From Ruditapes philippinarum (lineage: Eukaryota): DNA of 64,000 bases. Within the stretch, counting starts at the first letter, position 1; the number at the start of each line of letters is the position of its first letter. The translations under genes and the position numbers were made by a program. Location: contig NW_026864029.1 in the NCBI RefSeq assembly GCF_026571515.1, forward strand, positions 1-64,000, given 5' to 3'. Positions 271 through 47,948 of this stretch are shown one piece after another. Below the pieces are notes generated by a model. It saw nothing but the letters and a program-made list of their open reading frames with translations. It was not told the DNA's origin and made no database searches.

Positions 271-1875
271 GGAATACTACTCAATGCCCAGCAAACGTCC
301 AATCTGCATCAATGAAAGATAATTCAGTACTTGGACAATATAAATCCAGTTGTTATGAGCTGATACCAAATTATCGAGTAAGCTGGTCACATGGAGAACA
401 GGTGTGTGTACAGCGTGGCGGTCACCTTGCATATATCATTGATGCAGACGAGCAAGGATTTGTGCATTATTTCTTAAGTCGCTATTCTTCTAGGCATGCG
501 GTCTGGATTGGTCTTCATGACACAAAAATAGAAAACCATTTCGAATGGACGTCAGGTATGATAAATTTAGAAACGTGGTGAGTGAATCTCTGTATCGTTA
601 AGTCACGATTTATCGACCTGTGAGTAGAAGATATACGTTTAAGATCAGCGATAAAAGTAAAGATATATCCTATGTAATTGTGGAGCCTTTGTTTTGGGAG
701 GTTTGTACTGGATAAACATACCTACTGTTATGATATATCCATCACAATTTATCTGGCCAGTCAATAGAAGATAGGAGTTTAAGATCAGTAATTAAAGTAG
801 AGATTAACTAGGCCATGTAATACATGTAGTGGAGCTTTTTTGTCGCCGCCTATTCTTGTTGACCTTGTTTATCATATTTTGCGCTGGGTAACCTGAAATG
901 GGCTGACTTGATACGTGTTAGTACTGTTGCCCCATAACATTCGCACGTCACATAATACAATGTAGATGTAAGTGCACTGTAAAATACTTACCTGGACACC
1001 CTTTGAAGAAGGTGTAGAGACATACCACATACTTTTCGACGATCAAATCTAAAATATTGAATCTTTTATATAGGCATACGTATGACAGCAAACATTAATT
1101 ATGAGATGATGCAATAACAAACAATAGCTATACATGTGTACTTCATTACAGGAAGCAGTGTTAGTTACACAAATTGGGTCCCTGATCATTTGAATAATTT
1201 TGGCGCACATGGTTACGAAGATTGTGTTGCATTTGTACCGTATAAAGATGGCAAATGGGATGACATTCACTGTGGGGAAAGCATCAAGCTCATCGACCAT
1301 GACCTCGGAGAAGTTCATCCTGTAATTTGTCAATATGGTATGTCATTTGAAAGATAATTGGATTTCGATTCATAAAATGATTTTGTAGTATTGTTTTTGA
1401 ACGTGGCTCTGTGCAATAAATTAATCAAAAGTAAAAAAAAATAATACTTAGTTTAGTAATTTAGGGTTTTGCTGTACTGACACAATTTGTTGTGCATACA
1501 GTATTCATCAGTTCTTTTCCCTCTTAAGTATGCAATATATACTTTAAAAATGAGAAATTGTATAAGATGCCGAATCTGAATCAATCGCATTGTTTGTCGC
1601 TCTTGCTCCGTACCAATCTGGCGAAAGGCTAAGAAGGAGAGTCAGTAAAGATTTCATGAGATTGAATATGATAATAATACTAACCTCAGCAAAGCACATT
1701 TTAAAGGTGTACATTCATTGAAACGAAGTAACATCGACATACATAAGCCTTTAGTTGGTTTTGATTTATATATATCATATTTCGTTTAACATTTTTTTTG
1801 TCTTTGTAATATCTGATTAAATGTGATTTTAAATCTATTGCAGACTTGCCGATAGTTCAACAAGCTCTTGGGTAA
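271..1875 (+). CDS. C-type lectin gene A, last three coding exons (second CTLD and tail); 5' part lies upstream of the window
   Basis: Exons 271-555, 1152-1337 and 1844-1875 with phase-1 GT-AG introns. CTLD motifs CYEL, C.QRGGHLAYI, VWIGLHD, FEWTSG, YTNW, EDCV, WDD..C and ICQY. Ends DLPIVQQALG*, with AATAAA at ~1918. Confidence 0.9.
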
Positions 1876-3633
1876 AATAGACTCAGAAAGAAACAATATG
1901 TTATCTAGCGACATGTTAATAAAAATTGTGCTACTTGCAATGTTGTCTTTGTTTCTATTTTTCCACGTCAATTTGCTGTATTGGTATTTAAACTTATATG
2001 ATATTTTAAGCGTCTATCTAAATATGATATTTTAAGCGTACATCGTTTGAAATATCATAATGATAAAAAAATAATTCTCGTTATCACATTTGCAATATCA
2101 ACATAAAACAAAAATCGGTTAACAAATCGCAACCCAGTACAGAGTAGGAGCATACAAAACCCGAACTGACAACGTCAAATAGTATGTCAATAACATAGGA
2201 AATAATGAATCATAAAATATTTTAACTCAGATAACAAAAGATAAAATACCTAAAAAGGCAAAAAAATGACCGGAATACGAACTATATTATTTTTTTGATA
2301 GTTTCAAGACGTGTCAGACAGATTCATTTCCAATGGGATAATGCCGATATGCTCATACAAGTCTAAAACCGTTCTACGACATTTACGAGTATTTATCTGC
2401 AGCTTTACTTAATCTGCAAAATGCAATTATCCATAAAAATTATTTGTTTATGTATCATCGCGTCTGGGGAACAGTTTCGGAAAAGAGTGATAGTTTGTTT
2501 ACTTAACCATATCCCTGTAACTTTTGATATGATATATATTCTTCTTTATACTATTGCACAGTACATTTTTATCAGAATTTCTAATATATGTGGCCAACTG
2601 GTTTAAGAAACAAAATTCTTCCAGAGATCGTCTCTGAATAAGGACAAGTTCAAATTTAAAGGCCTTTAACGCCCTGTTTTGTGTGCTAACGCCTTTATAG
2701 TTTGATCTCGATAATGAAAAAAAGTTTTTGCATCTGTCTCCGATTACTGAAGCTTACAACTCGAAATTTGATATAGGTAACTAATTCTCTATAAGATGAG
2801 CAGAGATCCCGTACAAAGTTTATAACGTTTGTGTTTTAGCCATGCAAGGGAACTGGTCATTTATACGCGCATGACGACAGATGATAACCACGTCAATGAA
2901 CGCTTTTGTAGGCCCGTAACCCCCATAGTTGGGCCCCTTTGTTGTTGGTACATTGACAGAAGAAGAGTAATGTTGCAAAATTATTGAAGAACATTTACAA
3001 TTTTATGCTAGTGCAGTGGGTCAAAAAAACTTTATAAGTCATAAAAATCTACCATTTGTTATATTCGTACTCACATTTTATATGTATCAGAATATTTTTG
3101 TGTGTACAACAAATTTCACGTTATCTTAGCATTTTTGTTCTGCTTACAAAGGGACATCATTTTTAATTTTCTCAGATTAAAGATGCTATTTTCTGGCAAG
3201 TAAAAATCATAAAACGGTGTTCCATGACTTTGTATATACGCAAGTGTATAAGAAAATTATTGGTATTGTTTTATAATAACTTTGATTCTGTTGTTGGAAA
3301 GACTTAAGTTGCATAAGATAATGGAATAGAACAAGTACATAGCACATGTATACACGTTAATATTTTTAAAAAAGATCCTGGCTGGATCGTAAATAAAATG
3401 TATTCTCCAGTGAAAGAGCCATGTTAAGATAACCTAGGGAATATATATATGTCAAATACGTGTAAGTCATGTCTTATTTTGATCTTATCTATCATTTATC
3501 CATCATTGAGTTATTTTAATTTACGTCTATGTTTCAACAAAAAATTGATAAGGCTAGTTTGAACCTGTAGTATTTCAAAATTCACGACATTGTATGCACA
3601 TTTTCCTATTTATATTGACTTGGACTAACCATT

Positions 3634-6600
3634 ATGATTTTCAAATATTTTGTTTATATGTCTTTGATTGGTGCATACGTTAGGGCGGACTTTGATTGTT
3701 TATGTAATTACAATGTGGAAAAAAGTGTCCTCGCATCGGTAAGTGGACATTTTTAAATGTTTTTCAATAATTGACAATATGAATTAATATGCCATTTACG
3801 TGTACTTTATATGTTTATAGATGGATGAGTAGTCGGTAAGTAAGCCACAGAACGACAGTGTCAATAACGCGCTGAAAACAAACAACGTACAATTTGACTT
3901 TCTAATTAGGACAACGAAGACGTGGTCAATATATGATTAAAAATAACGAGTTCAAATAGTCCCAATATGGAACAACAGAAACAATAAAAATAACACATAA
4001 GAAGCGCTATTTGAATAATAAGTGAAATTTACGGCGGCATACTAAACGACACATTTATCGCCGTACAAAAGAAATTCAGTAGTACCAACGACTAAAATAT
4101 CATGTACATATTTTCTTCCTCACTTTAGACTTATTATACAATACGTTTCGGAAATTTAAATATTTTTCCTTATATGTAGGCCTCAGAACAAAGCCAACCA
4201 ATTGGCTACTTGTACGAGTTTGACTGTAAACCAACTTTAAGCAAGTCTTTAGCACCAGCCGAGTGGACAGTGATTGCCTATGAACACCAGGTATATGAAT
4301 TTTTAAATTTGTTTCTGATCTTTACAACGCGTATTATGTATAATGCACCATTAATTATGCATTGCTATTCTATAGCTATGTCATATAAAAAGTCATCAGC
4401 ATATAGTCATTGTTAATATTGTAGGCTCATTTTGACTGAGCCTGTTAATGGACGGCAGAGGAAGGTACAAGCTACCGTTCATGTCTACTAGAAATCGCTT
4501 AGACATTACTCAAAATCGAATTATAAAAGATATGTTTATTTTGGATCAAAACACATTTGCAGATGTGTACATACGTTATTGATCATGGAACATTGCACAC
4601 GAAATGCATTGAATGTGATGTGCTTTGGCCAAAAGCGATAAAACAATGGGCAGAATTCTGGAAGGAATTTTAAATGGAAAGTTTGATATATCAGAATGAC
4701 AAATTTAAGTTCATGTACTCTACTTTGTATCTTAAGGATAGAACAGGAAAACATTACTAGTATCACATAAGCCATTTCATTTAGATTTACTTCAACACAT
4801 TCTCTTGTTTATAAACACCTTAGTCATATATTTTTTTCAGACAGGCTTTGTTAAAACAGATGACCATACAAAAGTCCAAGTTTGCCCAGGCGAAGTATCT
4901 CCGGATGACAGATGTAAATTTTATCAAATGCTAATTTATACTTTCAAATTTTAACCCCACAGTATACTTTATACAAATAACGTTTTGACTTCCTGATTGT
5001 AATGTACATTATTACACACATTGAATACTTTGTGATAAATGAATATTTCACAATCATGCATATTTGGATCATAAAACTAATAATTTAGAAAATTTAAAAG
5101 AAAATTTGACATTATCGATAGAAGACATAAGATAATAAATTGTAGTATGTAAATAACTTTGTTGTCATATTGTTTCTGGTCCTTCGGGATCATTGATTCT
5201 TGCACGCTAGCAATGTGGCTTGAGAGACGTTACACCTTTTCATTATCTTTTATAAACAGGCTTTACAAAACTGAGTCTGTATTTTTCATAAAATATTGTT
5301 GTTTTCACTGCTTCAGAAAGATCACCCCTTTGCCATTTTTGTAATGTTATACATATCATATTTATTAATTAGTGACGACATTGTCTGCTCCCAATGTACA
5401 AACATCAACCTCACCAAGTGTACATTCAACTACAACCTATGTACAGACTTCCATGTCCACAAAGGTATCGACATCAACGGCGGCAGTTATGTCAACAACA
5501 ACGACAGCAGTAAAGTCAACAACACATTTAGCAACAACTTCAGAGACAGCAGTGATGCTTACGACAACATCACCTAATCCCACAACTACTGTAGCATCTA
5601 TTACAGTAACAACTGACAACGGAAATACAACAGGTTCATATACATAAATTTATTCCGCATCGAATATGACAGAATTGACGTTCACGTGGCCAAAATTGAG
5701 AATCACATAACATTAAGAAATATTTATTAAAGTACGGTCATAATTTCTTTAAATGATGTTATCATCTTCTGTAACTAGTACGGTTTTCTATAATTCTCTA
5801 ATGAATTTCAATCAAAACGACTTCAGTTGAGGTGAATTAGGCGAGAACTAATATATGCAATTAACAATATTAATACAATATGTAGAAAAAAATACTAACA
5901 TTGTCTGTATTTTGGACACATTTATGCTTAAATGATTTTTCATGAGTTTAATTCCATAACTGTGTTAAGGTCAACTGTGTTAGGGTCAGTGTATGAAACA
6001 TTTTCAGATTTTGCGATTGTTTGATATTTCACCTAAGAGAATATGTCGTATAATTGTGTATTTAAAAAAGTTTGAATTGCTAACTTATTTTATTTAAAAC
6101 AACAATGTTTCACAATCTTTCAAAATGCCAATTATTATTTGGGTTTATACTCAGGAGGGGAATTAGGCTGTCCAATGATAGTTCAACAAAGCGCTGCTCA
6201 GGAAAGTGGAACATTATTTATCAACAAGAATGACCAAAAATGTTATGAAATGGTTACAACTGTTCACAGCTGGGAGTATGCTGAGAGAGATTGTAAAAGT
6301 AAAGGCGGACATTTAGCAACAATTGGTGACGCCTTAGACGAGGAAATTGTGTATAAATATGTAAAAGCATATGGGCATCCCACATGGATCGGCTTACATG
6401 ATATGAATAAAGAGGAAACTTTCGAATGGGCTTCAGGTACCACCTAAGTATCCTTTTATTAACCCTTTCCCCCATGAGCATATTGTAAAAAAAGGCCGTT
6501 TTCTCTTAAAAACCTCCTGTTACAAGTTCAAACTGCTATGAAACTATGAAAAATGCTTCAATACTAATCAAACTTGGCACAAATTTGACTGGACCATTGC

Positions 6601-9600
6601 CTTTGTAACGATATGCTCAGTCTTAAATTTCCTGTTACCATGGCAACGAGGGGACATCTCAAAATTGCCAAAAATCACTATTTTGCCTCGATTTTTTCCA
6701 TCAAAATTTATTTCAAAGTGCTGCAACTTCTCAAAGGATTGAGATAGAGTCAAAGGCTTTTCAGCGTTGGTTACACGTTACATTTTGATCGACCTGGGGT
6801 CATTTTTAGCCTCTCACAAGTCCAAAATTTTCTTGGCGATGAGGGGGACTCCGCCCCCCTTCAAACCCCCCCCCTAACAGAAGGAGGCACACCCCCCTTC
6901 TGCCAACCCCCTGATGTATCTTTTGGATGGGGGTGGGGGGCGGCGCCGAAAAAGTGCTCTTTTTTAGCAACATTTCTCAAACTTAAACATGTGATTGGGG
7001 CCCAAATAGGACATTTTTTTCACTATTTGAGGTCTAAAAAAAGGGGGGAGGGTAGAAAGTGCGTTGTTTCGCGTATATATGAGGTAAAGGGTTAAATCAT
7101 TTGGAATGATGCTATTGCTTGAGCAATACATTTAAAGTAAATTTTCTTATTTTCGTTTCTTTAAAATATGTTGATGTGGCTCTCAATATTTTAATATGAA
7201 TATTTATATCAGAAATAACAGTCTTTTGTTCTAACATTTAATTACCTGCTACACAAATATATGAAATATTGGGTCATGCATCTAATACTTGCAAATACTT
7301 CAACGATATATAATTATTTCTAGGCTGATACTAAGTGCCATCAACGTAATTATCTATTGGATTACATACCTTCTATTTTAGACCAATACACTTAAAGCAT
7401 CAATAAATATTTTGAATGAGTACATGAATAAAGATATATCATTATGATGGGCGTTGTTGGTTATTATCTACGAGCTTGGTAACTTTGTTTCATATCTATT
7501 CATGTTTTGAGTAATCGCTATCAACTTACTGTATATACATTACAGGAGAACCTGTTGCTTATCTTAATTGGCACGCTGGCAGGAAAGATATATTTTTTCA
7601 TAATATAGAAGACTGTGTTGCCATGGGACCACTAACGGGTACCTGGGAGGATATGGACTGTCTAGATAGATATGCATATATTTGCGAATATGGTGAGTAA
7701 TGCAGTGTTATCAAAATTGTTTTATTTAATGCTTTTAAAAATAATTTATATTTACATTTTCCCCAAACAAAGCATTTTATAGAATTATATTAGATTGTTT
7801 AACCAATTACAAATACCATGGAATTTTGTTCATTTAGAAATGATTGAGGTAATGGTTTGAACAGAAAATGATAATAATAATAATAATGATAATAATAATA
7901 ATAACAATAATAACGATAATAATAATAGTATAGGATGATGCAAAAACAAGTAGTGTGATAGTCTATTTAAATGCCTTTATATTATAGACGAAGTTTATGG
8001 CGCCAATTATGTAGTGATAACCCCTCCTACAGGATCCTATACAGACGGTTTGTTTTATGTTGATATATAGATTTTTCTTTCAGCGTTTATATGTCTGTTG
8101 ATGGACGTCATTTGCTAAATAGAGAGAAATAAGAATCCCTAAAGAAAGCCCAACACGGCAGTCTAATATCCACAACCCAACCACCAGAACACCGATTTAA
8201 CATTAAACAAAACATTTCCACATATAGATATATTTTATTAGCTAAATTAATATAAGATTAAAAAAGTTACAGTTTCACTACTAAATACCTTTAAATGATT
8301 CAATATGCAAGGAAAAATCAACAGCTACGTACGTAATTGTTTTACGTCTGTACTCCTTTCAAGGCAATACGAATATGTGTTCTGCAAGCGTACAATCGGC
8401 TGCCCTCCGTGACAGTGCAGCTCTTGGCCAATATGGAAGAAGTTGCTACGAATTGATATTACACACAAAGGTTAGATGGGAGCATGGTGAAAGTATGTGT
8501 AAAAGCCGCGGCGGTCATTTGGCACATATATATAGCGCAGACGAGCAAGGTTTTGTCCAGTATTTCATGAATCGTCACTCACCTCAACATGCTGTTTGGA
8601 TTGGCCTGCATGATACAAGTGTTGAGGGACAGTTTGAGTGGACAACAGGTTAACCTGTTATTGTCAATTATATGCATGTTCGTTTCATTCCTGCAGATTA
8701 CATGTGAAATTTTAGGTTTCTTACACTAATTATTTACATCAAATACTTATATGTAATATATTTATCATTATAAGTCATATGGGAAATTAACCTAAAGATT
8801 TAAAAGGTTAAAGGATTTTATCATATTCTGTTTTATTAATATCAAGTTAAATTTAATCTTTGGTGTGTAGGAAATGCTGTTAATTATACCAACTGGATTC
8901 CTGGACATGAAGCAAATTTTGAAAGCTCCAAGACGGAAGACTGTGTTACATTCATCCCTTACAAAAACGGACAATGGGACGACATACCATGCGGTTATAA
9001 TTTTATTTTTGGAGACAGCGGAGAAACTCATCCTTTCCTCTGCCAGTTTGGTATGTTTCAATTTTAACAGCTTTACATTACTTGCTATAAACATTTTCAA
9101 TATCCCGATTAAAGTGATAACTGAAAGGTTTTCGTCCAATGTTATGTTACTTCATTTGCGACTAAAATGAAGCCAAAGAACGTGCCTGTAGGTTAAGGTT
9201 CATCATTAACCCTTTCACTGCCATAGAGACGGCTTATGCCGTCCCTGCTATTTTCGGCGTATTTGCCATATGGACGGCTATAGCCGTTTCTATAATAATA
9301 AAAGTAATAATAATAAAATGATAATAATAATAATAAAAATAATAATAAATATAAAGAAAATCATACCATCGACAAAATGATTAATATTATACTTACAGAT
9401 TTGGAAACATATATAATTATTATAATACTAATAACAAATAATAATAATTATATTAATTAATAATATAGTAATTTCTAAGAAAACCCTCTGGCAAATAGGT
9501 GATCAATAAAACAATAAACCTCTGGCAGCGAAAGGGTTCTATTGGTATTCAAATAGTAAACAAAATATATTATCATTATTAAAATAATCATGATGCCAAA

Positions 9601-9818
9601 ATATGTTTTATCAATTTCATGAAAACTTATAAATTGAAATATCTTTGTCTTAACATCTTTATAACGATAGCTTGTATGAAATATTGTTAGATAAAATTTG
9701 GTTCCTTGACAAAAAGAAATGTATGTTGTTAAAATCTAGAGATATCAGGTTGTTTTTGATCTTTTAATTTTGTCATTCTTTTTCAGACATCGATTCTTCT
9801 CAAATAGTTGTTGGATAA
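3634..9818 (+). CDS. Secreted C-type lectin B (~511 aa): signal peptide, Cys-containing N-terminal domain, mucin stalk, two CTLDs
   Basis: Ten exons: 3634-3738, 4180-4290, 4841-4913, 5373-5633, 6155-6436, 7546-7692, 7988-8047, 8364-8648, 8871-9050, 9787-9818. All are GT-AG and phase-consistent. Starts MIFKYFVYMSLIGAYVRA-DFDCLCNYNVEK, has two WIGL-type CTLDs and ends DIDSSQIVVG*. Confidence 0.9.
6463..7091. mobile_element. piggyBac-like non-autonomous element in intron 5 of lectin B
   Basis: TTAA on both flanks (6459-6462, 7092-7095). TIRs CCCTTTCCCCCAT / ATGAGGTAAAGGG. The paralogous intron in gene D (~26946) has a single TTAA empty site. Confidence 0.8.
7868..7927. repeat. (AAT)n microsatellite
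   Basis: Imperfect AAT run read directly; the paralogous position in gene D falls in the N gap. Confidence 0.85.
9210..9536. mobile_element. piggyBac-like MITE with internal AAT-rich tract, intron 9 of lectin B
   Basis: TIRs CCCTTTCACTGCCA / TGGCAGCGAAAGGG. Left flank is TTAA, right flank imperfect. Absent from the gene D paralogous intron (~29065). Confidence 0.7.
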
Positions 9819-11046: not shown

Positions 11047-11144
11047 TCAGGAAGAACAGTTCCACCCGGAGTTTCCCATTAACTTTTTCACGAAGCTGCA
11101 CAGCATGCTTACGTTCGCCGGTCCAGCAGATGATGTAGATTTTA
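11047..11144 (-). pseudogene. Orphan third exon (P0) of the cysteine-rich peptide family; exons 1-2 are absent
   Basis: Acceptor TTGCAG followed by (V)KSTSSAGPANVSMLCSFVKKLMGNSGWNCSS*, homologous to P1 exon 3 (30691-30791). Upstream similarity ends at ~11500, where LINE sequence begins. Confidence 0.75.
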
Positions 11145-11504: not shown

Positions 11505-13610
11505 AAATCGCGAATGTGAGAAAGGAGGCTTCTCTGACAAGACTATTATTACAAGTGAAGAAAAAACTCCAGAAAACCGTATATAAAGACCTGTTTATCC
11601 ATGCAGATCAGTCGAAATTGAACGCCTTGAATTCAATATTTTACGAGCAATGGTGAATGCAGTGAATAAAGGAAGTCTTCATACTAGCTGAGTATTTAGT
11701 GCTAATAGAAATTTTTCTAGCTATGATGAGTCACTAACTCAGGATAATAATACCTATCAATAGTGATGTTCCGATTGTCGCATGTCGTCGATAATCAGTT
11801 ACTGTTATGTAAAGCGACAATAATCGATTCACAAAAATTTGTTCCGCGACGTCGTCGAAAATGTTTAAAGTATCAAAGGGAATTAATTCTGACGGTAATT
11901 TCCTTTTAGGAACACCTTACCGATCGCAAAGAAAATATCTCAGAGACAATTTGGAGTTGAACAGGACCAATACGTGATGTAAACAATAGTTATACAATGT
12001 GATGTCAATGTTATTATTTGACATCCATTGGAAAATAAAAGCTTTTTCGTAAAATTATGACTATATAAGGTTTAAACTGTGTTGAAAAGTGCTAATTGAA
12101 GTTCACGTTACTGAATATAATAAAGTGCCTTGGGAAGAAATGTTTCTTTCTTATTTCTTTTTAACGCGACTTTATTCGAAAAGTTATCGATTATGTCCCA
12201 TCCGATTGAACCGATGATCGATTGGGACAAATACCATCCGATTTCCATCACTACCTATCAAACAGGCACCCACACTCAGAATAACAGTACCAATCAAGCA
12301 GGCAATAATCAATTACCTTCGAATAGTGCTTCACAGGGCAACGCGGGTTCTATTTATAGAGGTCAGGGGAACTGGGGTCAGCAAGATCGTGGGAAAAGTA
12401 ACAGAGGACAAGGACATGGAGGTCAAATGGGTCAAGGTCAAGGATATGGAGGGCAAGGACGAGGAGGAAGAAGAAAGGTTACTTCCGGTTTCTGGAATTT
12501 TAATGGGTGGAGTACCGTTAAAGACAGTGACAATTTTATTTTAAGAAGTGAATGTGTTCAGTTTTTAAATGTTGACATTTTAGGCATTGCTGAGACTCAT
12601 TTGTGTAATAATGATATTATTGAATTACCAGGGTTTGTTTGGTTTGGTAATAATCGTAAATCTTTACATATAAATGCAAGGTCGAGCGTTGGAGTTTTAA
12701 TTAAAATGGAACTGTTTGATTTTTATGATAAAGAAATTATTTATAGCAGTTTTGAAGGCATATTATAGTTAAAATTTTCTGATGAATTTTCAGGGTTAAA
12801 ATCTTATACATGCGTACGCTATCTGCCACCTTATAACTCTTCTAAACAAATTGATGTTAGTTATTGTTATGATACCCTATTATCTAGTATATATGTATAT
12901 CAAAATGATTGTCTATTATATATTTGTGGAGATTTTAATAGTCGTATGGTGACAATTGTGATTTTATTATTTGGGCTGACGATTTGCCAGACAGAGATAT
13001 TGTTGATGTTTTTTTTTTTGTAACGCTTATTGTGACAAGTTATTAGATTTCCTGATAGATAGTAACATGTGTTTATTGAATGTTCGAAATTTATATAAAG
13101 GATGATTTTACATCAATATCTACTAAAGGATGTGCAGTTGTTGATTATTGTAAAGTTGCACATGATAGTTTGAACCATTTTAAAAATTTCACAGTTATTA
13201 GAAGTACTGAAATTATTTCAAACATTCAAGTAAATAATGGCTTTATGCCTGTATCCATACCAGACCACTCTATATTAACATGGATGGTTGAATTTGATAA
13301 TTATAGTGAAAAGTTTTACAACCTGTATGTGAAGCAGTTAGTTTTGATAAGTTTGATTTAAAAAGTTTACAAGATAATTTTTAAACACTCATGATGTAAT
13401 TTCGTCACTTCATGATACAGTTTCTAAACTTGAATAAAGTTAACAGAGTCAGAGTTATATTTAAGATGCTTATTCTAGCCTTTGAAATATTTTAAAGAAT
13501 GAGATGTATGACAAATTATCTTCTAAATGTATTAAAATTGATTTTGGTATCTCTAACAAGAACAGAAATGTTAGTAAACCCTGGTGGAACAGCAACCTAT
13601 CTCGCCTATG
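11505..13610 (+). mobile_element. Degenerate non-LTR retrotransposon (LINE) fragment: Gly/Arg-rich putative ORF1 end plus APE endonuclease of ORF2; no RT
   Basis: APE motifs GFWNFNGW, DILGIAETHL, ICGDFNSR (~12921), VVDYC and PDHSIL, then KPWWN (~13577). Multiple stops and frameshifts. The left boundary is approximate. Confidence 0.85.
11761..12253. mobile_element. hAT-type MITE nested in the LINE fragment
   Basis: TIRs TAGTGATG / CATCACTA with a perfect 8-bp TSD CCTATCAA (11753-11760 and 12254-12261). Confidence 0.85.
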
Positions 13611-15242
13611 CTTTTCAAAAAGTAGATTTTAAATGTGTGTGCAACTATAACATAGATAAAGGGGTCTTTCAAACGGTATGTATTGTTTGTTTTTCGGCCG
13701 TAGGCTGTTTGAATCCGCTGCGACATTCGTTAGACTAAAAGCTTTTTGCCATCCTTTTGCCGGTTCTTTCCGATATAAAAAAGTTTTCTATGCCATTATT
13801 AAGCACTGATAATAGTTCTGCATGATAAGAACACTTTTAACTAATCGAGTATTACAAAAAGACATTTGTAAAATCTAGAAACAAATGGATCGATTTTTTA
13901 GTTGAACATTTTCAAATTTGCTCAATGGACCGTTGATATATATAAGGATTATACTCGGCGTTTTTTATGACCAATAAAGCACCGACATGACCGTGAGCAA
14001 GAAAAAAACACGTAAGCTGAGCGCTTTCAGAAACTTTAATGTAGTCCTCGTCTTCCCGATGCTGTGGCAGACTGGTGTTTTCTTTGTACCATGACTGGTA
14101 TATAGTACCTGGTATATTCAAAGTTTTTTTTTTTAATTACAGACATCAGAGAATGGCAAGGCTATTGGGTATCTTTATAAATTAGACTGTAAACCCATTG
14201 TTACCGAAACAAGTCTACCATCCGGTTGGTCAACTGTTGCATTTGAACATCAGGTAAACAACAAAAATCTTTTTGGACAAACTATATCCTTCTTCTTACG
14301 AGTTGCAACCTTTTTTTCACCTTGCCCATGATTTTCTTGTGTGTTAAGATAATATGCTTACACAAACAATAGTAGCAATTTTTCAGTATGATAAATTAAA
14401 AAGGTGTTTTCCTAGCAACTCATTCTCTCCCTACATTTATATTTTAAATAAATGCAGTGTATCTTTATATCTTAAGTATAAATTAAAGACTTATAAAATC
14501 ATCGGGCCGGTGCTATAATTGTACACATATAAGATTGGTATTTTTAATTGACTATGCACATGTCACAGTAATAAGAAATTTGCCTGCCTGCCTTCTGCTA
14601 CCTACCTACCTGTTTGCCTGCATGCATCCATGCCTATACCTACCTACCCTACTCCACCCTACCCGTCCTCTTGCTTTTGCTCTTGCTATATATCTAGCAT
14701 ATGTTTTCCTTCTATTTTTATTCCATACGAATTTGCAGATGCATATCACTTGATTCATGATTTATATTATTTCGTTCTTTGTAATGTGTGCTTTATTTCG
14801 GTAATTAGAATGATATTGTGTTAATAAACAGCATAAAGTTGTCAGTTTGATATTATACATCAGTTAAACAGGCATTTTCATAGCATGTATATATACGAAT
14901 ATATTTTAAAAATATATTGATAAAATAATTGAATTGTCATCTTTTACATTTTTTTCAGATTCTGTTTAAGCGCAAAATATTTTCATATGTTTCAAAATGC
15001 CTGATGATTCGATGATATTATAAGCCGTTGTATTGTAGTATCAGTTATGAATGGCCACCAACACGGATTCATTAAGACGACACTTACAATTATTGTATCC
15101 AGATTAGAAACTGAACGCTTTCTAAATAAGATGCTTTGGCAATCTTTCAAGTTTTAAATATATAAAAGAAAAAAAGCCAACAATCCCCACAAAAAAGAAA
15201 CACCCCACACTAAAAAAAAAAAAAAAAAAAAAAAAAAAACAA

Positions 15243-15283
<41 letters not shown>

Positions 15284-15460
15284 GGGAAAGGTGTAAGCTT
15301 ATTTTGTGAGGAAAAAACAAAACTTAAAATTATAAGAACGATTCCTTTCATCGTGTGTCCTACAACAATGTTAGCCGATGTAACAACTAATAAGTGCTCA
15401 AAGTCGTAAAGCATGTCAATTCTCCAACCCACTTATCAACTTTTTGCCACCGATACTTAT

Positions 15461-15655
15461 TTGAGCAGCGTCATGACAAAACCAACAAAGTGCGTTTGCG
15501 ACCAGCATTGATCCAGACCAGCCTGCGCATCCGCGCAGTCTGATCAGGATCCATGCTGTTCGCTTTCAGTTACTTTCCTTGTAATACAGTTTGTATGGTC
15601 TGTATCCATGCTGAGCGCACACGCACTATGTTGGATTTGTCATGACGCGGCTTAT
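15461..15655. mobile_element. Internally deleted copy of the palindromic MITE family
   Basis: Shares GCGACCAGCA..GATCCAGACCAGCCTGCGCATCCGCGCAGTCTGATCAGGATCCATGCTG with 31478-31717 and 61748-61986. Confidence 0.75.
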
Positions 15656-34269: not shown

Positions 34270-37200
34270 TTAAGAAAAACACTGTCGATCAGAGATGCCC
34301 GTTATCTTTTTAAGGAGGCTGCACCTCATGTTTAATATGTTTGCCAATCCAAAAGATTCTCTTTTAGCCCCAAGGCTTACTGAAATAAATAAATAAATAA
34401 TCAAAGAATATATAAATAACTAAATAAATACAGTGTAATTGTAAATAAATAAAGTACCAGAAAGAAAGAAACGCTCAATTACACACAAGTTTTTCAATAA
34501 TTGGTATTCTATTGCTTTGAAAAAATATATTGCTGCCCGAGTGGAGATAAAATTGTAGAAAACAATTATTAGTATTATTTATTATGAATATTTACAATGA
34601 CAGCCGTTTTATTAAAATAGTTTTTCAATACGTACAATGGAATGACTAAAGTTTGGCATTTTTTTGCAAAAGTAATGTTTCCGAGTCACATCAAAACGAA
34701 AAATAGCCTCTAAAATACCAATGTAAAACTATAAATCTCTATGAATATAAATATATATACAAAAGATGTATCATTATAAAAAATACTCGGATTAATAAAG
34801 GAGTAAGGATGAATATTAATACATAAATAGATAATGACCATACCTCTTTTACAACACGAGCATGTCTCACAACCTTCATACGTTCCATTATTCTCTTGTG
34901 TAAAGATCAAGTGTCGCTTTTCGCACTGAGCTTTTTCTTTTGCAATAGAAGGTTTCGAACCAATTTCTTTTTGATCTTCGGCTGTCCACTCATAGCATTT
35001 ATACGCCGCTAAAAGATAGTTGTATGAAGAATTCTGTTTAAGAATGTTAGAATAAATCGAAGTATATGAAGCAAGGTAACACGCTTCAACACAAGGTAGG
35101 GTTGGGGTTCCTTTGCCGAGGTAAAAGCCGTTGACTGTTAACCACTTGCCCATATCAAGCGTGAGCTCGAATCCCGTCACAGTCCTACGCATAAACCCGA
35201 GATTTCCAGTTTTCCCCCCAAATTTCCTATCTCTGGCCAGTGATGAGCATTTAATTATAATTACATGGCTTGTCACTGTATCACTGATAGCAGCACCCTA
35301 GAATGTTTTATGATCCTATCATGTTTCAAGAATGTATAGTTTAAGCTTGAGGATATAGAGAACATTTTAGATATAAGGGAAACTACACTGTTGAACCCCC
35401 ACAGTGACATTGACCAGTCTTGTTCGCGACACACCATACATCTATGGTTATTTCATATATAAAAGAAAAATAAAAATCCTTTCATGCATACTGAAATTTC
35501 AGAGCGGACACGACCACCTTCTATATTTATATATAACATAAAAAAATGACAAAGTTCGAACCCCCACAGTGACATTGACCTTAGTCGTAGGAACCCGAGT
35601 CTCGTTCGCGACACACCATACATCTATGGTTATTTCATATAAAAAAAAATAAAATCCTTTCAGAGCGGACACGACCACCACTGTCTATATGTATAAAGCC
35701 TGACGGACTGATAGACTGACATACTGACAGACAGACAGACAGACGGTTCGATTTTAATATGCCACCGGGGGGATAAAAATCATCTAAGTTCAAAGGGGAA
35801 ATAATTTTAGAAATATTCATGCTAGAGTTATGAATCTTGTCACACATGTATAAGGAACATTTATTTTAAGTTAGAAGTATATACCTTAAGAAATAAAGAA
35901 GTAAGTAAAAAAGAAACATTTATGAGGAAAAAATGAGTTTAAGAAATAAAGAAGTAAGTAAAAAGTAACATTACTTGGGGAAAAAAATGAGTTCATGGGG
36001 AGATAATTCTGGAAAAATATTGGTGCTAGAGTTAATTACATTGTCACATATGATGTAGTTGATGGTAAGGAACACATATTTGAAGTTTGAATTCAATCAC
36101 TTATTATTAAATGAAGACGTTAGAGTAAAAAATAAAATTATTTTATGGAAAATTATATGTTCAAGGGGATATAGTTCTGGAAATACTGGGTTTTTGAGTT
36201 TAACACCTTATCACATGATGTGTATGATGATAAGGAATACATGTGTACATGTGAAAATTAATGACCCTTCAGGGCGGGGCCAAATTTTACCCCAGGGCTA
36301 TGATCTGAACAAACTTGATAGACACTCAGTAAAAGATGTTTCATACCAAATATCTAAGCTCTAGCTCTTTGGATTTTTTAAAAGAAGATTTTATAAGGGT
36401 TTTTTTGGTTGCTATGGCCAAAGTTCTGCATTGAACACCTTTGGTAGAGCTTTACGCAAGGAACACTCCTGCAAAGTTTCAACAAATTTGGCTTATTGGT
36501 TTAGGGGTAGAAGTTGTTTAAAGAAATTTTGACCTCAGATGAGCTAATAAAAAAAGTAAGAGATAAAATGTTTACTGCACATAAGCATTAATTTAAAGTA
36601 TGCACGCTGGAGCCGACTTACAAACCGAGGTGAGTAGCACAGCTCTCCATATACTTTATATAGTCGAGCTAATAATAAAAATATCACTTACCTGGTCACT
36701 TAGTTAAGAGTCTTGCACTTTGCAGTAAAAAATTACATCTGTAACAATGTTTGACTTTTTTTGTTTGTTTTTTATCGTGTTATTTTTCCGGGTAGGGCAG
36801 TTCACTCAGTAACATGAGTAACAGTGACACTTAACTATGGAAGTTTATTAATTAAGAAGATGATTATCACTTATACAGGTATTTCATTAAGTAGCTAAAA
36901 TTTATCTTGTGATATTAAGTATATTTACAAATAATTCAAATAATTGCTAAGTTTCACAATTCACTTTGGCCGCAGACTCAGAGAAAAAAATAACATCGAT
37001 AAAAGTGAGTGTATCTTAAGAAATTTGATCCCTCAACGTTAGGGGCCATTAGATAAGAATATACAGAGAGCTAATAATAAATGATGACAAAACTCTCACA
37101 CAGTGGACGTGTTAATGGGAGAAATACAGTTAGTAGTGATCTACTAGCTGATAAGCCCTTACTGAGATTCAGCAGGCTGGAAGGGTTTATGCGTAGGACT

Positions 37201-37905
37201 GGTCAGGGACTTTTGAATCTTTACAAATAGCTCAGAGAACGTCAATAATTCTTCAATGTCCGCTTGTGGTAGAAATAATGCAAGAAAGGCACCTGAGGTC
37301 TTCTTCCACCAATAAAGATGGAAAGTCGCCATATGATTTTAGAAGTGTCGGTGTGTTGCAACTATAACCCGAAATAAAATTTACTAAGACACAATATGCA
37401 AAATATGTCAATCATTTATTATCATTGGAAATTCTTTATTATTGTATTATATTTCAGTGAGGTGTTTCTTTTCTTTTTATTTCTTTTGTTTTGTTGCATT
37501 GTATCCTTTGAGCATTACGTAAGCACTTGACACTTGTTGTAATGTGTAGAAAATTATAAAAAAGCGAGGAGGCTTTAATGTTTTCTACCATATACCTCTA
37601 AAAAGATAGTATTTCTTCAACGTTAACATTTTTATCAAAATCTGACACGTCTTAACATTTTGGGCCGAATCGTATTTATAGCCCGACAAGTCGTTATGAA
37701 GCAATTTGTAATCAAGAAGGCATTTAAATAAAGAATTCGAAATGAAAAAAAAAAGAAAGTTCATATTATTAAACAGCAAAATGATAAAACATGTTATGAA
37801 ATTTTAATGATATAAAATAAATAGAAAAAAACACATACCATTTGAACAATGTATAAAAACGTTAAGGAAACATAATGTCCATATTACAAGGTTCCCAGCG
37901 TTCAT
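34270..37905 (-). CDS. Small secreted cysteine-rich peptide P2 (113-aa precursor)
   Basis: Exon 1 at 37905-37839: MNAGNLVIWTLCFLNVFIHCSN. Exon 2 at 35008-34844: AAYKCYEWTAEDQKEIGSKPSIAKEKAQCEKRHLIFTQENNGTYEGCETCSCCKR. Exon 3 at 34379-34270: VSLGAKRESFGLANILNMRCSLLKKITGISDRQCFS*. Confidence 0.85.
35390..35780. repeat. Interspersed repeat with two ~170-bp core repeats and a (GACA)n tract; possible Helitron/Helentron-type non-autonomous element
   Basis: AACCCCCACAGTGACATTGACC...TCGCGACACACCATACATCTATGG...GAGCGGACACGACCAC occurs twice, followed by a GACA microsatellite and a short GC-rich end. The class assignment is inference. Confidence 0.55.
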
Positions 37906-42635: not shown

Positions 42636-45600
42636 ATGGATCTGTACAAAAGTAGGGTATTAACGGCGTTATACCTTTTCCTTCAAACTGTGATATGCGA
42701 CTACTCTTGTGTGTGCAATTACAATGTTGAAAAAGCGGTATTTCCATCGGTTAGTCAATGCATTCCATGTTTGATTATATAAACCCGTTCCTAATTTGAA
42801 ATAAGAGGTACCATTGCGCCTTGACAACCAAATAACTGAAAATACTGGCATGGGAAATTTGTTGAAAATCGCAGAAATATCATGGAAAAAGCCACATAAT
42901 TAATGCTCCTTAGCAACGGTTTAATCTGTATTCTAATATTAGCATTACTTGTATTAAATACAATGATTATAGAGAACCAGGAAATGCTTTAGAATGTTTT
43001 TAATATATTCTAAATTTAATGATAACTTAAGTCATACGTTACACGAGATTACATTAAATGCTTTTGTTAAGTCGTTTATACTTTAAATAAACAATTACAA
43101 TGTGTTATGTCACTTTCAGAAATCGGAGCAAGCACAGCCAATTGGTTACATGTATGAGTTTGATTGTAAATATCAGATAGGAACTGGTGACAGTGATAAA
43201 GATTGGATAAGTATTGGTTTTGAACACCAAGTAAGTTAATTAAGCTGTAATACTGACTTATAAAATTTGTGACTTAATCTATTATTGCTTTTGCTTTTGC
43301 TCGGGTTTTCAATTTGTAAACTGGTACAATATTTATATATTTTAAACATTGTACCATATACATTTTCTTCTATAAATGCCTGCGATTTCAACGGTTATTG
43401 CTCACCGTGGTAGTCATTGTATATTGACATAGCTGTTGAAACAAAAATGAAATTTTAGATTTTGATTTTTCAGATTGATAAAATGTTTTTGCATGGCATT
43501 TTGCTTAGTTCTATTATTTATAAAGGACAGGACAGTAGATGTCACCATTTACTTTTAAATAACCAGAAAGCTGTAATAGAATAGGAAAGAAATATGACAG
43601 AATTTGTAAAATTGTAAAATTCCTTCCCACCTTTGTAATCATACTAAAGGGAGAAATGTTGATTGAACTATGAATTTTATATGCATGCAATGTAGATTGG
43701 GTATATAAAGAAAGATGGACAGATAATGGTACAGATATGTGCAGGGAGCCGACCTGATGAAGATCTTGGTACGGCTTTTAGATATTACTTGTTACACATT
43801 AAAAGGATGGATATGAATAGGTTTCAATGGAATGTGTACCAAATATTATTTGATGTCAATCGCAAATAGGAATAAGATTTATTAAGAGCATTGTCATACA
43901 ATATTGCACGGAATAAAGGTCAGATATGCAGCTATCAAGAAGACCGATTGCAAACATGTAAATTTACATAATAAATATTGTCATCATACCACACTTGTGC
44001 TTTAACAACGAAAGGAACGGTGATTGGATTTGTGAGTGTTCATGTAACAGAATAGAAGAGCAAGTAAATATATAACGGGTTTATGCACAGTATCAGTCTA
44101 CAACCATAAGGGTAAAAATAAACAAACAGAATGAAACTTACTATAAATATATATGCCAATGTTTGACAGATTCAAAGGATAATTAGATGAAACAACCTTT
44201 TTGGTTTATTATTCCAAATATTCTGAAAATATAGGACAGTTAATAGCACGGATTTAAATACACTACTGACCAGTACTTGATGTTTTACGAATTCAGAAGT
44301 AATTGCAGCAATCGTGCATAACCACCATATGAATACATATGTTCCCTAATTCAAATGTTACTTTTCAGTGTTGAACTCTGCCTAAGTAGGTGTACTTTCC
44401 AGTACCGTCCATAAACGTTCTGTCAAACCGAGTCTGCATTATTTTAGTATCGATGTTTTGGCGTTCTTTATGGATTCTTTTTTTATTTCAACTTAATGTA
44501 ATAAGAAGTAAAGTATTTATAGTTAAGAAACTTGTCATTGTCTTTTTTCTTTCTTTATTTAAGTAACAACAACACCGGCACCACTAACAACAACACATTT
44601 TGTTACATCCTCTACGACTAAATTATCAACTCCAGAAAAGTCAACAGTATCTACTACATTAACAAAGCAAACGTCTACGACAGACCTGCCGACCACATCT
44701 ACCTTACCAACGCTATCTTCTACAGTGTTACCTTCAACAACTTCAGTTACTCCTTCAACGATACCAGCTTCCACGACAATACCGTCAACAACAATTAATT
44801 CGACCAAATTTTCTTTTCCATATTCTTCGTCTACTAGGATACAAACTACCAAACTTTCAACACCTGTTACATCTCCAAATACTGTTTCATCTTCACACAT
44901 GCCACTCTCCACATTAACTAGAGCTTCTACGACAAGAACAACTACACATACGGCCCAAACAAATGCTACAACTTCAAATTCACCTTCAACCTCAACAACC
45001 CAACAGACTACTTTAAAATCAACAACTTTACCACCAATTGTGACCACAACTTTGCGACCAATACAAACAACTATAGGTAACTTCTTGACCCTACTTTGAT
45101 GTTTTAATATAAGTTGAAATATATACATGTATACATTTAAGCCAGCTTAGGGTAGTGATAAAAGTGTTGTTTACAAAACAATAGAGAAAACAGAGTTCCG
45201 CAAAAAAACAAACACCAAATGACCTCATAATTGAAAATGTTGCAGGTTAAGTTTGAGCCTTTTCATACACAGTAGAGGTGATTGCAAGCTACCGTCTACA
45301 CTTCCTCTTGCACCGATTTAATCCAAATCCGATATATATATACAAGTCAATTATGAAAAATATAAATTAATGTGGTCAAGCAACAATTGAAAACAGTGCA
45401 TTTTTTTTACTATGGTATGTTTATTGTGATCCTTTCGTTGCAAACAATAGAAAATAATTCTTCGTTTGATAGTGTAATATATTTTAAACTTACTTCTTTT
45501 TATTTTGTTACTAGAATTTTTACTATATAACTAACAAATGATATCAGAATAAGTTATCAGATATTTCTGAATAGTGAAAACAAAAATCAATACTTTTTAA

Positions 45601-47948
45601 ACAAATGTTATGTAAAACAATGTTGTTAAATATTTGTTTAATGGATTTATCCAATCTCATTAAAATCAAAGCCTAACTGTCGCTCAACAACCTTTCGCTA
45701 GAAAGCGAAGAATTACGGAGCGAAAACGATGATCTGATTTTACTGAGATTGGGATCTATCCTGTCATGAATTAGGAACTTTTATTTGTCACTATAGATGA
45801 ATTAAGGTAGACGGCAGTTTAAAGACTTGTAAGCTGTTTCTGTTGAAAAGATGAAAATATTTGCCGACTAAGCAGCACTTCTAATTTGTATAGGAAATTA
45901 ATGTATTAACGTATCCTAATAATAATTTCAGGTCGTATTCTTGTCAACAGTAAACAGTACAGTCATATATGAAGGCCGTTCAGTAGGTTTCATATTTAAA
46001 TTAAATTAAATTACAAAAAGCTTGTTCTAATCTATATTTCTAGATACAACGCCATCTTGCGCTGTGTTATTGAAAGACGTTATATCTAAAGATAATGCGA
46101 CGCTATTTGCATATGGAGATAAATGTTTAGAACTCCTTTATATACACACCACATGGGTCAATGCTGAGCTAGAGTGTAAACGGAAAGGTGGTCATTTAAT
46201 AGAGATAGATAATTCCATTGAGCAAAGGGTTGTTCACCAAGTTATTGACACCTATTATCATGAATCTGTATGGATAGGCCTTCATGACAGACATCACGAG
46301 GAAAGGTTTGAGTGGACTTCAGGTAAGGTTAACATATATAAAACATTTCAATGAAATCAATTACAAAACAGTACTTTTACCTACCACTATTGTGTCAATG
46401 TACTCTGTCTGAGGCATACTTCTGAAATATGTTTGTTTCTTTGTCATATTTATGTAATCCGATATCTAAATCCAATAAGAAAAACAAATAGAGAAAAGCA
46501 TAATCCCTAATGAAGGCCCAAAACTTCATAATTGAAAATGTTGGAGACACGGTTTGATTGAGCATGTTCATGGACTGCTGTGGTAAATTTAAGCTACCGT
46601 CACTGTCCCGTAGCAATACTAACTAATTCTAATTGTCTAGTTTATCTCATATTTGATATATGAACTTAAAACCTCTTAAAACTACATCCAAAACGAGATT
46701 GTGAAGACATTTATGCACACATCAAATGAGTCAATGTAGAACTCGAGTGTGAATGAGTCATCTGTCATCATTTAGCCCTATTTTCGAATTTCAATTTATT
46801 GTACAGGAAAAGCCGTTGTTTACACTAATTGGTATCCGGGAAGATTAGATCCAAATAACCACTGGACAGAAGATTGCGTTGCCATGGCATTGAATAAATA
46901 TTCCGGCCGATGGGAAGATCGTGACTGTAGTGAGAAAAGGGGCTTCATCTGTCAGTTTGGTAAGTAATACGATACATGTAATTGAAAAAAGTTCGGGTCA
47001 AAAATGAAAATAATTATTTAGCACCATTCATATTAAGTCATTTGAGTTGTATAATGTTTTTCAAAGATGCAAGGCAACTAACAATATCAGCATTATATTC
47101 TCCATTCAGATCACAAATAGCAATTTATTAAATGGGTTCCTGACTACAATGGTACACATATGTTTTATTGTTTTTAAAAAGAAAAGAAAATCTTCGCAAA
47201 CGTTTGTCTAAATTAAATATGCGACAATAGCTTTTGTTTTTATGCCTTACTGCCACACCCACATGCTTTGTTTGTTCTTGTTTTTTTTTCTTTTACACGT
47301 CAGAGATGTATACCGATGCTACTATTAAAACATTTTCTCGCTCGAAATGTTTCCATTCATTCTTGTTCCATATCGAAATGTTTCCATTCATTCTTGTTCC
47401 ATATCGAAATGTTTCCATTCATTCTTGTTCCATATCGAAATGTTTCCATTCATTCTTGTTCCATATCGAAATGTTTCCATTCATTCTTGTTCCATATCGA
47501 AATGTTTCCATTCATTCTTGTTCCATATCGAAATGTTTCCATCCATTCTTGTTCCATATCGAAATTTAAAATCGATAGAACGACAAAGCCAAGTACATGA
47601 GTTCCAATCTAATCCGTGTAAAGTAAATACATGTTTCTCTATATGGACTTTGTTACATTCTTCCTTGATAATCCATTTTAAATTGATAAATGTTTTATTA
47701 TTGATGTTTCGCTATATCAGTTGGTATTGAAGTGTACATTTTTTTCATGATATTTTCCTGATGTCTAATAGAAAGTGTCATATACATTTGCCAACATGAC
47801 GCGAGGTACGTTCCATACTTTTAGGCTGCCGTTTCTTTTACTACAGGAAGTGCACAAGTATGCTTGTAGTAAACAATATTGATGTATCATTTATTTACGT
47901 CTTTTTTCAGGAAGGCACACTCTAAAATTACCAGTCCTGATTGGATAG
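42636..47948 (+). CDS. Secreted C-type lectin E: divergent family member with a long mucin stalk and a single CTLD
   Basis: Exons 42636-42749, 43120-43230, 43696-43768, 44564-45076 (171 Thr/Ser/Pro-rich codons), 46044-46322, 46807-46959, and a probable last exon 47911-47948 (GRHTLKLPVLIG*). The choice of last exon is less certain. Confidence 0.85.
47342..47565. repeat. 31-bp minisatellite, about 7 copies
   Basis: Unit TCGAAATGTTTCCATTCATTCTTGTTCCATA, head-to-tail and nearly perfect. Confidence 0.95.

What the first reader, a model, noticed from the sequence alone, without database searches (positions are those of the whole stretch)
271..47948. Interleaved lectin and peptide cluster: candidate recognition-plus-effector locus
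Seen: five lectin genes (+) and four peptide loci (-) are intermixed. P3 and lectin E are head-to-head with ~2.3 kb between start codons, and P1 and lectin D are tail-to-tail. Both families are secreted. Inference: a co-regulated mucosal or immune module in which SH3b-like/CTLD proteins capture microbes or particles and the peptides act as effectors, possibly with shared regulatory DNA at 40361-42636.
Basis: inference. Interest (0 to 1): 0.7.

Follow-up and report, generated by a model that had tools for sequence, protein, structure and literature searches.

The report
Peptide triplet inside clam lectin array
Three small cysteine-rich genes sit inside a duplicated row of clam lectin genes whose products are predicted to carry a bacterial-type cell-wall-binding domain, but the two families meet nowhere else in the stretches examined, so they are likely chance neighbours rather than a recognition-and-killing team.

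Summary
The genes are real, but the 'interleaved module' is mostly duplication history. This Manila clam contig carries five plus-strand lectin loci and four minus-strand peptide loci. Only three lectins (B, D, E) and three peptides (P1-P3) are whole. P1-P3 form one block between D and E. The rest of the intermixing comes from a 19.4-20.5 kb tandem duplication: A matches C, B matches D, and 'P4' is only a copy of P1's last exon. Lectin C has lost its signal peptide to a LINE-like repeat. Head-to-head P3/E (2.28 kb) and tail-to-tail D/P1 (1.34 kb) are confirmed. The lectin N-domain has a predicted bacterial SH3b fold (Z 9.3). The peptides carry a mobile, Pfam-unnamed six-cysteine module plus a basic tail. 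The pairing does not recur: 0 of 13 other SH3b loci hold the module, and 0 of 9 other module loci hold these lectins (flanks only). One Mercenaria gene model joins the D and E orthologues, so D-E adjacency is old. Co-regulation is unsupported but not excluded. The parts are more interesting than their linkage: my searches found neither the SH3b-CTLD design nor the module in print. The scan had no look-alike finding on other DNA.

The parts
271..1875 (+). Lectin A, 3' part only (last CTLD and final exon); the rest lies before the contig start; duplicate of C's 3' part
   Evidence: exons 96.5% and 100% identical to C
3634..9818 (+). Lectin B, intact, 10 exons, 511 aa: signal peptide, SH3b-like domain, Thr-rich stalk, two CTLDs
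   Evidence: equals RefSeq XP_060564991.1
11047..11144 (-). P4: orphan copy of the peptide's third exon (79.6% nt, 61% aa to P1 exon 3); no module exon or signal exon found
11761..12253 (.). Dispersed repeat (39 other copies scored, 90-98% identical) at the break after P4
12484..13610 (+). Decayed LINE-like fragment (endonuclease region) whose end abuts lectin C exon 1
   Evidence: a close copy has a 1,179-aa frame with weak Exo_endo_phos matches
13611..20709 (+). Lectin C, damaged: no start or signal peptide, apparent frame breaks in exons 3 and 5, last-exon acceptor lost near 21,250 (pseudogene, or partly local consensus error)
19365..31162 (.). Second copy of a tandem segmental duplication (first copy 1-11,500; offset 19.4-20.5 kb; 80-89% nt; B vs D dS about 0.11)
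23423..29354 (+). Lectin D, intact, 10 exons, 509 aa, 94.5% identical to B
   Evidence: equals RefSeq XP_060564992.1
30691..32641 (-). P1, three exons (32,641-32,575; 31,417-31,253; 30,791-30,691), 110 aa, open frame; no database protein for it was returned
34270..37905 (-). P2, three exons, 113 aa
   Evidence: equals RefSeq XP_060564990.1
39006..40361 (-). P3, three exons, 115 aa
   Evidence: equals RefSeq XP_060564989.1
41535..41907 (.). High-copy dispersed repeat inside the P3-E gap
   Evidence: 3,646 first-look candidates, 40 scored, 76-80% identity
42043..42107 (+). Untranslated upstream exon of E, spliced to 42,629-42,631
   Evidence: joint in 1 of 4 runs (X7, on record as RNA); matching loose end in X6
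42636..47948 (+). Lectin E, intact: signal peptide, SH3b-like domain, long Ser/Thr stalk (171-codon exon), one CTLD
   Evidence: five internal joints seen in 3-4 of 4 runs and the last exon as a loose end in 4 of 4

Best explanation
This is a tandem array of clam lectin genes, reshaped by a 19.5-kb duplication and repeat insertions, in which an unrelated triplet of small cysteine-module genes has likely come to lie between two older neighbours as a passenger rather than a partner. Shown: gene order, the duplication, the damage to C and P4, and the absence of the pairing in the flanks of other loci of either family. Inferred history: (1) D-type and E-type lectins were already adjacent in a venerid ancestor; (2) one module gene arrived between them and triplicated (dS 0.6-0.9); (3) a segment holding a C-type lectin, a D-type lectin and the end of P1 was duplicated (dS about 0.11); (4) the duplication breakpoint or a later repeat-associated deletion left P4 without its first two exons and C without its start. 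Inferred function: each lectin is secreted, and its stalk, likely O-glycosylated, holds an SH3b-fold tip apart from one or two non-canonical CTLDs, so it likely binds bacterial cell wall and glycans and agglutinates microbes or particles on its own. The P proteins are likely secreted binding modules with a basic tail, driven by their own duplicated proximal promoters.
For: Duplication 1-11,500 / 19,365-31,162 accounts for A=C, B=D and P4=P1 exon 3. Only three module exons in the 110.9-kb contig, all in one block. The module exon matches 29 other places on 9 contigs; SH3b exon 2 matches 19 other places on 13 contigs; the two contig sets do not overlap. Profile scans of fetched flanks: module in 0 of 13 SH3b loci (469 kb), although 10 of 13 have CTLD exons there; SH3b or family-type CTLD in 0 of 9 module loci (298 kb). 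0 of 88 module-bearing proteins match Lectin_C or SH3. Mercenaria model LOC123527086 joins a D orthologue (77% over the CTLDs) directly to an E orthologue (80-82%) across an internal signal-peptide-like stretch. A search with full-length P2 returned only P2 and P3, of 2 candidates. P1-P3 group apart from 28 other clam and 6 Mercenaria module copies (96/91 support). Upstream DNA is conserved among P1-P3 (67-76% nt). SH3b fold: pLDDT 88; best Z 9.3, rmsd 1.7 over 66 residues.
Against: Under a uniform model, the chance that at least one of ten module loci lies within 1.5 kb of a CTLD is only 0.6-2.3%, and 4-15% within 10 kb. The adjacency is therefore not trivially expected, though the test is post hoc and the genome is not uniform. 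P1-P3 are basic (net +4 to +8, pI 8.7-9.2) whereas three multi-module relatives are acidic (pI 4.4-4.8), and P1's tail is amphipathic (p 0.0025; P2 0.41 and P3 0.17 are not): this subfamily differs from the others, so their lack of linkage may not speak for it. The Mercenaria D-E fusion is a gene model; opposite-strand genes could hide in its joining intron, and I could not read that genome. Flank scans covered parts of contigs only, and the CTLD profile came from this family. B vs D dN/dS is 0.28 and the P pairs 0.37-0.54, so both families are under constraint.
Confidence: 0.7

Rival explanations
1. One reading: the lectins capture microbes, the basic P peptides act as effectors, and the P3-E gap co-regulates them as one immune or mucosal module.
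For: Head-to-head P3/E and tail-to-tail D/P1 are real. SH3b fold; SH3b is reported to bind peptidoglycan and occurs in bivalve PGRPs (PMC11810698, PMC3308963, passages read). P1-P3 are cationic, with 8 cysteines in the mature chain. Low chance of close adjacency under a uniform model.
Against: No repeat of the pairing at 13 other SH3b loci or 9 other module loci. No CTLD or SH3 fusion among 88 relatives. P1 and P2 lie 10 and 4.7 kb from E's ATG yet share P3's upstream sequence. A high-copy repeat sits in the gap. No Pfam antimicrobial family matches the peptides.
Confidence: 0.1
2. Loose neighbourhood effect: both families are secretory products of the same mucosal or mantle epithelium and share an open chromatin domain, without a specific partnership; the P module is a binding or adhesion domain rather than a killing agent.
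For: 10 of 88 relatives carry extracellular binding or adhesion domains above Pfam cut-off (WSC, SUEL lectin, VWD, Kringle, Xlink, tectonin, ricin-B, PAN, TSP1, Ig/cohesin), including Mytilus zonadhesin-like proteins. The weak fold neighbours of the P2 model include CTLD cores and a cyanobacterial lectin (Z 2.1-2.6).
Against: Z under 3 is noise level by the tool's own note, and the profile-profile comparison of module and lectin alignments gave 0.3% probability. No positive expression evidence links the two families.
Confidence: 0.15
3. The 19.5-kb duplication is an assembly artefact (two haplotypes written in tandem), so A/B/P4 and C/D/P1 would be alleles.
For: The assembly is fragmented (15,874 contigs, 1.41 Gb), the contig starts inside the first copy, and 20,990-21,280 reads like unpolished sequence.
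Against: The copies differ by 11-20% over long stretches with many insertions and dS is about 0.11; the junction holds distinct repeats and gene C's 5' half. If true, it would reduce the interleaving further, not rescue the module.
Confidence: 0.05

Closest known systems
Bivalve multi-domain C-type lectin-domain proteins (Pfam PF00059; RefSeq labels 'C-type mannose receptor 2-like', 'macrophage mannose receptor 1-like'; reviews PMC10140915, PMC12842671, passages read)
   Same: Secreted CTLD proteins from an expanded, lineage-specific family (1,112 first-look CTLD candidates in this genome, 150 scored); non-canonical sugar-site motifs are common in bivalves.
   Different: An SH3b-fold domain on a Ser/Thr stalk at the N-terminus; 'SH3' occurs 0 times in the main text of both reviews; no EPN or QPD motif.
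SH3b-containing bivalve PGRPs (MgPGRP5, PMC11810698; Mytilus edulis HE609081, PMC3308963; passages read)
   Same: A bacterial-type SH3 domain joined to a recognition domain in a bivalve protein.
   Different: The partner here is CTLD, not amidase/PGRP; the domain has four conserved cysteines and escapes Pfam SH3_3; binding is untested.
Bacterial and phage SH3b cell-wall-binding domains (PDB 9ovi, 3pvq, 7pj3, 4krt; lysostaphin SH3b 6rk4)
   Same: Predicted fold: Z 9.3, 9.0, 8.7, 8.2 and 6.5; the 19 best rows are cell-wall-type SH3b domains, ahead of cytoplasmic SH3 (Z 5.9 or less).
   Different: 4-18% identity; no catalytic domain attached; ligand unknown.
Uncharacterised module-bearing proteins of bivalves and other taxa (XP_053385567.1, XP_060603017.1, XP_076108178.1, KAL3852085.1)
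   Same: Same ~55-residue module: aromatic-Cys-x2-Trp start, a helix ending in Cys, and a CxxCWCC-type end.
   Different: Those are repeats of two to four modules (acidic in the two venerid examples) or fusions; P1-P3 have one module plus a 33-38 residue basic tail with two more cysteines.
Cysteine-stabilised alpha-beta defensins (PDB 7jnn, 7lns)
   Same: Small, disulfide-rich, helix packed on strands; weak fold rows (Z 2.1-2.5).
   Different: Only one cysteine on the helix, so the CxxxC/CxC signature (recalled) is missing; the first and fourth cysteines co-vary as a pair.

Membership tests
C-type lectin-like domain proteins (PF00059) | CTLD profile match above cut-off | tested here: met
   D: 139.6 bits, 2 domains; 4 of 6 single CTLD exons of B and E pass the cut-off and the other 2 match just below it
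Canonical Ca2+-dependent C-type lectins | EPN or QPD motif at Ca2+ site 2 | tested here: not met
   0 of 6 CTLDs of A, B, D, E; E has DPN, the second CTLD of B and D has E-x-N; WND-type position reads WED or WDD (motif definition from PMC12842671)
Canonical Ca2+-dependent C-type lectins | Sugar binding | not testable with these tools
   needs a glycan array
SH3b (bacterial SH3) domain | SH3b beta-barrel fold | tested here: met
   predicted model pLDDT 88, seven strands; Z 9.3, rmsd 1.7, 66 residues; Foldseek top rows SH3b, best E 0.0075, TM 0.65; language-model atlas 0.90 with only 100 of 256 features shared, a lead
SH3b (bacterial SH3) domain | Sequence match to Pfam SH3_3/SH3_4 or to PDB SH3b sequences | tested here: not met
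   0 of 6 members; none in D; no SH3 among 16 PDB sequences up to E 10
SH3b (bacterial SH3) domain | Binds peptidoglycan or wall polymers | not testable with these tools
   inferred from fold only
CS-alpha-beta defensins | CxxxC on the helix paired with CxC on the last strand (recalled) | tested here: not met
   alignment of 44 shows one helix cysteine, C51
CS-alpha-beta defensins | Shared fold | tested here: inconclusive
   Z 2.1-2.5; the model included signal peptide and tail
Named antimicrobial peptide families in Pfam | Profile match | tested here: not met
   no such family for P1-P3 or among the top 25 families over 44 aligned relatives
Bidirectional, co-regulated gene pair | Divergent start sites close together (under about 1 kb, recalled) | tested here: inconclusive
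   ATGs 2.28 kb apart; E's transcript reaches at least 42,043, i.e. 1.68 kb from P3's ATG; P3's start is not mapped
Bidirectional, co-regulated gene pair | Correlated expression | tested here: inconclusive
   8 runs laid; none allows a proper comparison
Functional two-family gene cluster | Linkage repeated at other loci of the same genome | tested here: not met
   0 of 13 and 0 of 9, flanks only
Functional two-family gene cluster | Linkage conserved in related species | tested here: inconclusive
   D-E adjacency kept in a Mercenaria model; no P1-P3 orthologue found; no other bivalve genome could be read

The most novel reading that the evidence does not exclude
A young recognition-plus-effector module: two-headed lectins that grip bacterial cell wall with an SH3b tip and glycans with CTLDs have captured a triplet of cationic peptides built on an undescribed, cross-kingdom six-cysteine domain, and both are now driven from the P3-E gap and act together in clam mucus.
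Probability: 0.1. Interest if true: 0.6.

Novelty: new variant of a known kind. Interest (0 to 1): 0.27.

Why it matters
The locus itself is ordinary birth-and-death turnover of secreted genes. It is a caution that head-to-head placement and interleaving in bivalve genomes can arise from one duplication and one insertion. Two by-products deserve follow-up. First, a multi-locus family of SH3b-stalk-CTLD proteins, shared with Mercenaria and Dreissena, hides under generic lectin names because Pfam misses the SH3b domain; if it binds peptidoglycan, it is an unrecognised class of bivalve pattern-recognition protein. Second, the peptides' ~55-residue module has no Pfam family and no solved relative, yet recurs in bivalves, a copepod and unnamed metagenome proteins, often fused to extracellular binding domains. 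If co-regulation were shown, it would be a rare case of a sensor-effector gene neighbourhood forming within one clam lineage.

Tried and rejected
Expression: raw reads of 4 RNA runs (2 studies, 4-12% of each read) on 27,900-47,300 were dominated by repeats, and exon bins stayed near background for all genes, so they say nothing on co-expression. Contigs of 4 runs from 4 studies (1 on record as RNA, 3 guessed) on 38,900-47,300 show E spliced but no cover at all over 38,900-41,428, which holds all of P3. Contigs show presence, not absence, the likeness bar was 95%, and the runs were probably found through E, so I do not count this as evidence. I laid 8 of the 24 runs listed; A, B, C and P4 were not covered. 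Module fold: no match in PDB by Foldseek (best E 3.4), none at Z 5 or more by VIA, none in the viral library, none by profile against PDB sequences, no usable atlas hit; this does not show a new fold. The idea that the module is a shrunken CTLD rests on Z 2.1-2.6 rows and failed the profile-profile test: lead only. I first read the Mercenaria module genes on a 64.3-Mb chromosome versus lectins on a 76.4-Mb chromosome as loss of linkage; the tree places them with the acidic subfamily, so I dropped that argument. The tree has 56 columns and many open forks. No second haplotype copy of E exons 1-2 or C exons 5-6 was found in the genome. Pfam did not recognise the window's LINE-like fragment itself. 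No complex prediction was run: adjacency was the only reason for one. Linkage to the SLC7 transporter gene in other bivalves could not be tested. Literature: 9 searches; none found SH3b with CTLD, the gene identifiers, the CWCC module or a head-to-head lectin-peptide pair; one search gave three general papers and led to two reviews. The library lacks most subscription journals, and no supplements were read; those of PMC10140915 may list this architecture.
Full report
Setting. The window is the first 64 kb of a 110,893-base contig in a 1.41-Gb assembly of 15,874 contigs. RefSeq proteins identical to my models name it as Ruditapes philippinarum.

Anatomy. Left to right: A (+, 3' part, 271-1,875), B (+, 3,634-9,818), P4 (-, one exon, 11,144-11,047), two repeats, C (+, 13,611-20,709), D (+, 23,423-29,354), P1, P2 and P3 (all -, 32,641-30,691; 37,905-34,270; 40,361-39,006), E (+, 42,636-47,948), then an SLC7-type amino acid permease. 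B and D encode a signal peptide, an ~80-residue domain over three exons, a Thr-rich stalk and two CTLDs. E has a longer stalk and one CTLD. E's five internal joints appear in contigs of 3-4 of 4 runs from 4 studies, and one run adds an untranslated exon at 42,043-42,107. P1-P3 have three exons each: signal peptide, a ~55-residue cysteine module and a basic tail. They are 50-56% identical.

Where the interleaving comes from. Self-comparison shows 1-11,500 repeated at 19,365-31,162 at 80-89% identity. Exons of B and D are 89.5-98.6% identical, with dS about 0.11. The shared stretch ends about 90 bases short of P1's module exon, so the first copy holds only P1's last exon. A module profile finds exactly three copies in the whole contig. 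Beyond P4 come a 493-base repeat and a LINE-like fragment whose similarity to other copies stops at 13,610, inside C's first exon. C also shows frame breaks and a lost last acceptor. The intact arrangement is therefore one peptide block between two lectins. One inserted opposite-strand block necessarily gives one tail-to-tail and one head-to-head junction, so these two observations are not independent evidence.

What the lectins are. CTLDs pass Pfam, but 0 of 6 carry EPN or QPD. The N-domain has no Pfam or PDB sequence match. Its predicted structure (6 sequences, pLDDT 88) aligns best to bacterial and phage SH3b domains: Z 9.3, rmsd 1.7 over 66 residues, ahead of cytoplasmic SH3 domains at Z 5.9 or less. 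SH3b is described as peptidoglycan-binding and occurs in oyster and mussel PGRPs (PMC11810698 and PMC3308963, passages only). Two bivalve CTL reviews do not mention SH3 in their main text (PMC10140915 and PMC12842671, term searches and passages). PMC13186322's one hit was SH3BP1, unrelated. The family is old: relatives occur in Mercenaria and Dreissena, and at 13 other contigs here, 10 of them with CTLD exons in the fetched flank.

What the peptides are. A search of 1.84 billion representatives gave 88 relatives. None passes a Pfam family for the module, none matches Lectin_C or SH3, and 10 carry other extracellular binding or adhesion domains above cut-off. Four cysteines are invariant in a 44-row alignment. 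The first and fourth come and go together: 41 both, 2 neither, 1 truncated row; by pattern over the 88 proteins, 21 both, 7 neither, 0 discordant. That suggests a disulfide pair (inference). The predicted module is confident (pLDDT 81-95 over residues 21-80) but has no clear structural match. P1-P3 are basic (net +4 to +8), unlike the acidic multi-module relatives tested. Only P1's tail is clearly amphipathic among the whole genes. An effector role is possible; a binding role fits the fusions at least as well.

Is the linkage meaningful? Within the genome the module matches 29 other places on 9 contigs, and SH3b exon 2 matches 19 places on 13 contigs, with no contig in common (both are lower bounds). 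Profile scans of 469 kb around the 13 SH3b loci found no module; 298 kb around the 9 module loci held no SH3b or family-type CTLD. Across species, a Mercenaria model joins a D orthologue (77% over the CTLD region) to an E orthologue (80% N-domain, 82% CTLD) in one frame, so D and E are old neighbours. No P1-P3 orthologue came up (2 candidates, a word-based search of limited reach), and the Mercenaria module proteins belong to the other subfamily. I could not look inside the Mercenaria interval. Against my reading, a uniform model gives only 0.6-2.3% for one of ten module loci lying within 1.5 kb of a CTLD, and 4-15% within 10 kb; this is post hoc. An earlier scan note on this genome describes unrelated secreted VWA genes lying antisense in another C-type lectin array (e1-9867709; not checked by me), a lead that such nesting is not rare here.

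The proposed shared promoter. The ATGs are 2.28 kb apart, but E's transcript reaches at least 42,043, and a repeat with thousands of first-look candidates fills about 41,535-41,907. P1-P3 share 67-76% identity around and upstream of their first exons, as expected if each carries its own duplicated proximal promoter (inference). The RNA runs available could not test co-expression.

Verdict. The SH3b-like lectin reading is supported; the co-regulated recognition-plus-effector reading is not supported, though not excluded (about 10%). Best explanation: a passenger triplet in a birth-and-death lectin array (70%). Interest 0.27, carried by the SH3b-CTLD design and the unnamed module rather than by their proximity.

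Noticed in passing
window 55,850-63,770 (+): Multi-exon cationic amino acid transporter (SLC7/CAT-like); two exons tested match AA_permease and AA_permease_C. It runs on past the last exon read.
   Followed up: partly
window 48,541-52,450: Element with ~550-base terminal inverted repeats (90% complementary) around a ~2.8-kb core: a DNA transposon or foldback element.
   Followed up: no
window 15,453-15,657; 31,470-31,720; 61,745-61,990: Copies of a palindromic MITE-like repeat; the copy in P1's first intron draws very deep RNA read cover from elsewhere in the genome.
   Followed up: partly
window 47,342-47,565 and 52,784-53,268: Minisatellites: 31-mer x7 (99% alike) in E's last intron; 22-mer x22.
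   Followed up: no
window 20,990-21,280: Stretch that looks like unpolished long-read consensus relative to its paralogue at 1,620-1,880; C's missing last acceptor may be an assembly error.
   Followed up: no
G000:C5473:306,900-384,400 (L037-L045): A larger array of the same lectin family: 4 SH3b exons and 15 CTLDs in 100 kb, several CTLD pairs without a detected SH3b exon.
   Followed up: partly
G000:C7804, C4610, C5129, C13710, C11504 (L018-L036, L085-L088): A separate acidic subfamily with two or three module exons per gene, also present in Mercenaria.
   Followed up: partly
P0096/P0104 (Mercenaria LOC123527086): The RefSeq model looks like a chimera of two tandem genes: a second signal-peptide-like stretch and SH3b domain start at residue 529 of 950.
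   Followed up: yes
P0062, P0089, P0011, P0047, P0049: The cysteine module also sits on a DNA polymerase X/ligase protein, a BRCT/ligase protein and bacterial-type secreted or TadE-like proteins, so it is not limited to animals.
   Followed up: no
window 30,691-32,641: P1 is intact by my model but was not returned as a full-length database protein, unlike P2 and P3; it may be unannotated.
   Followed up: partly
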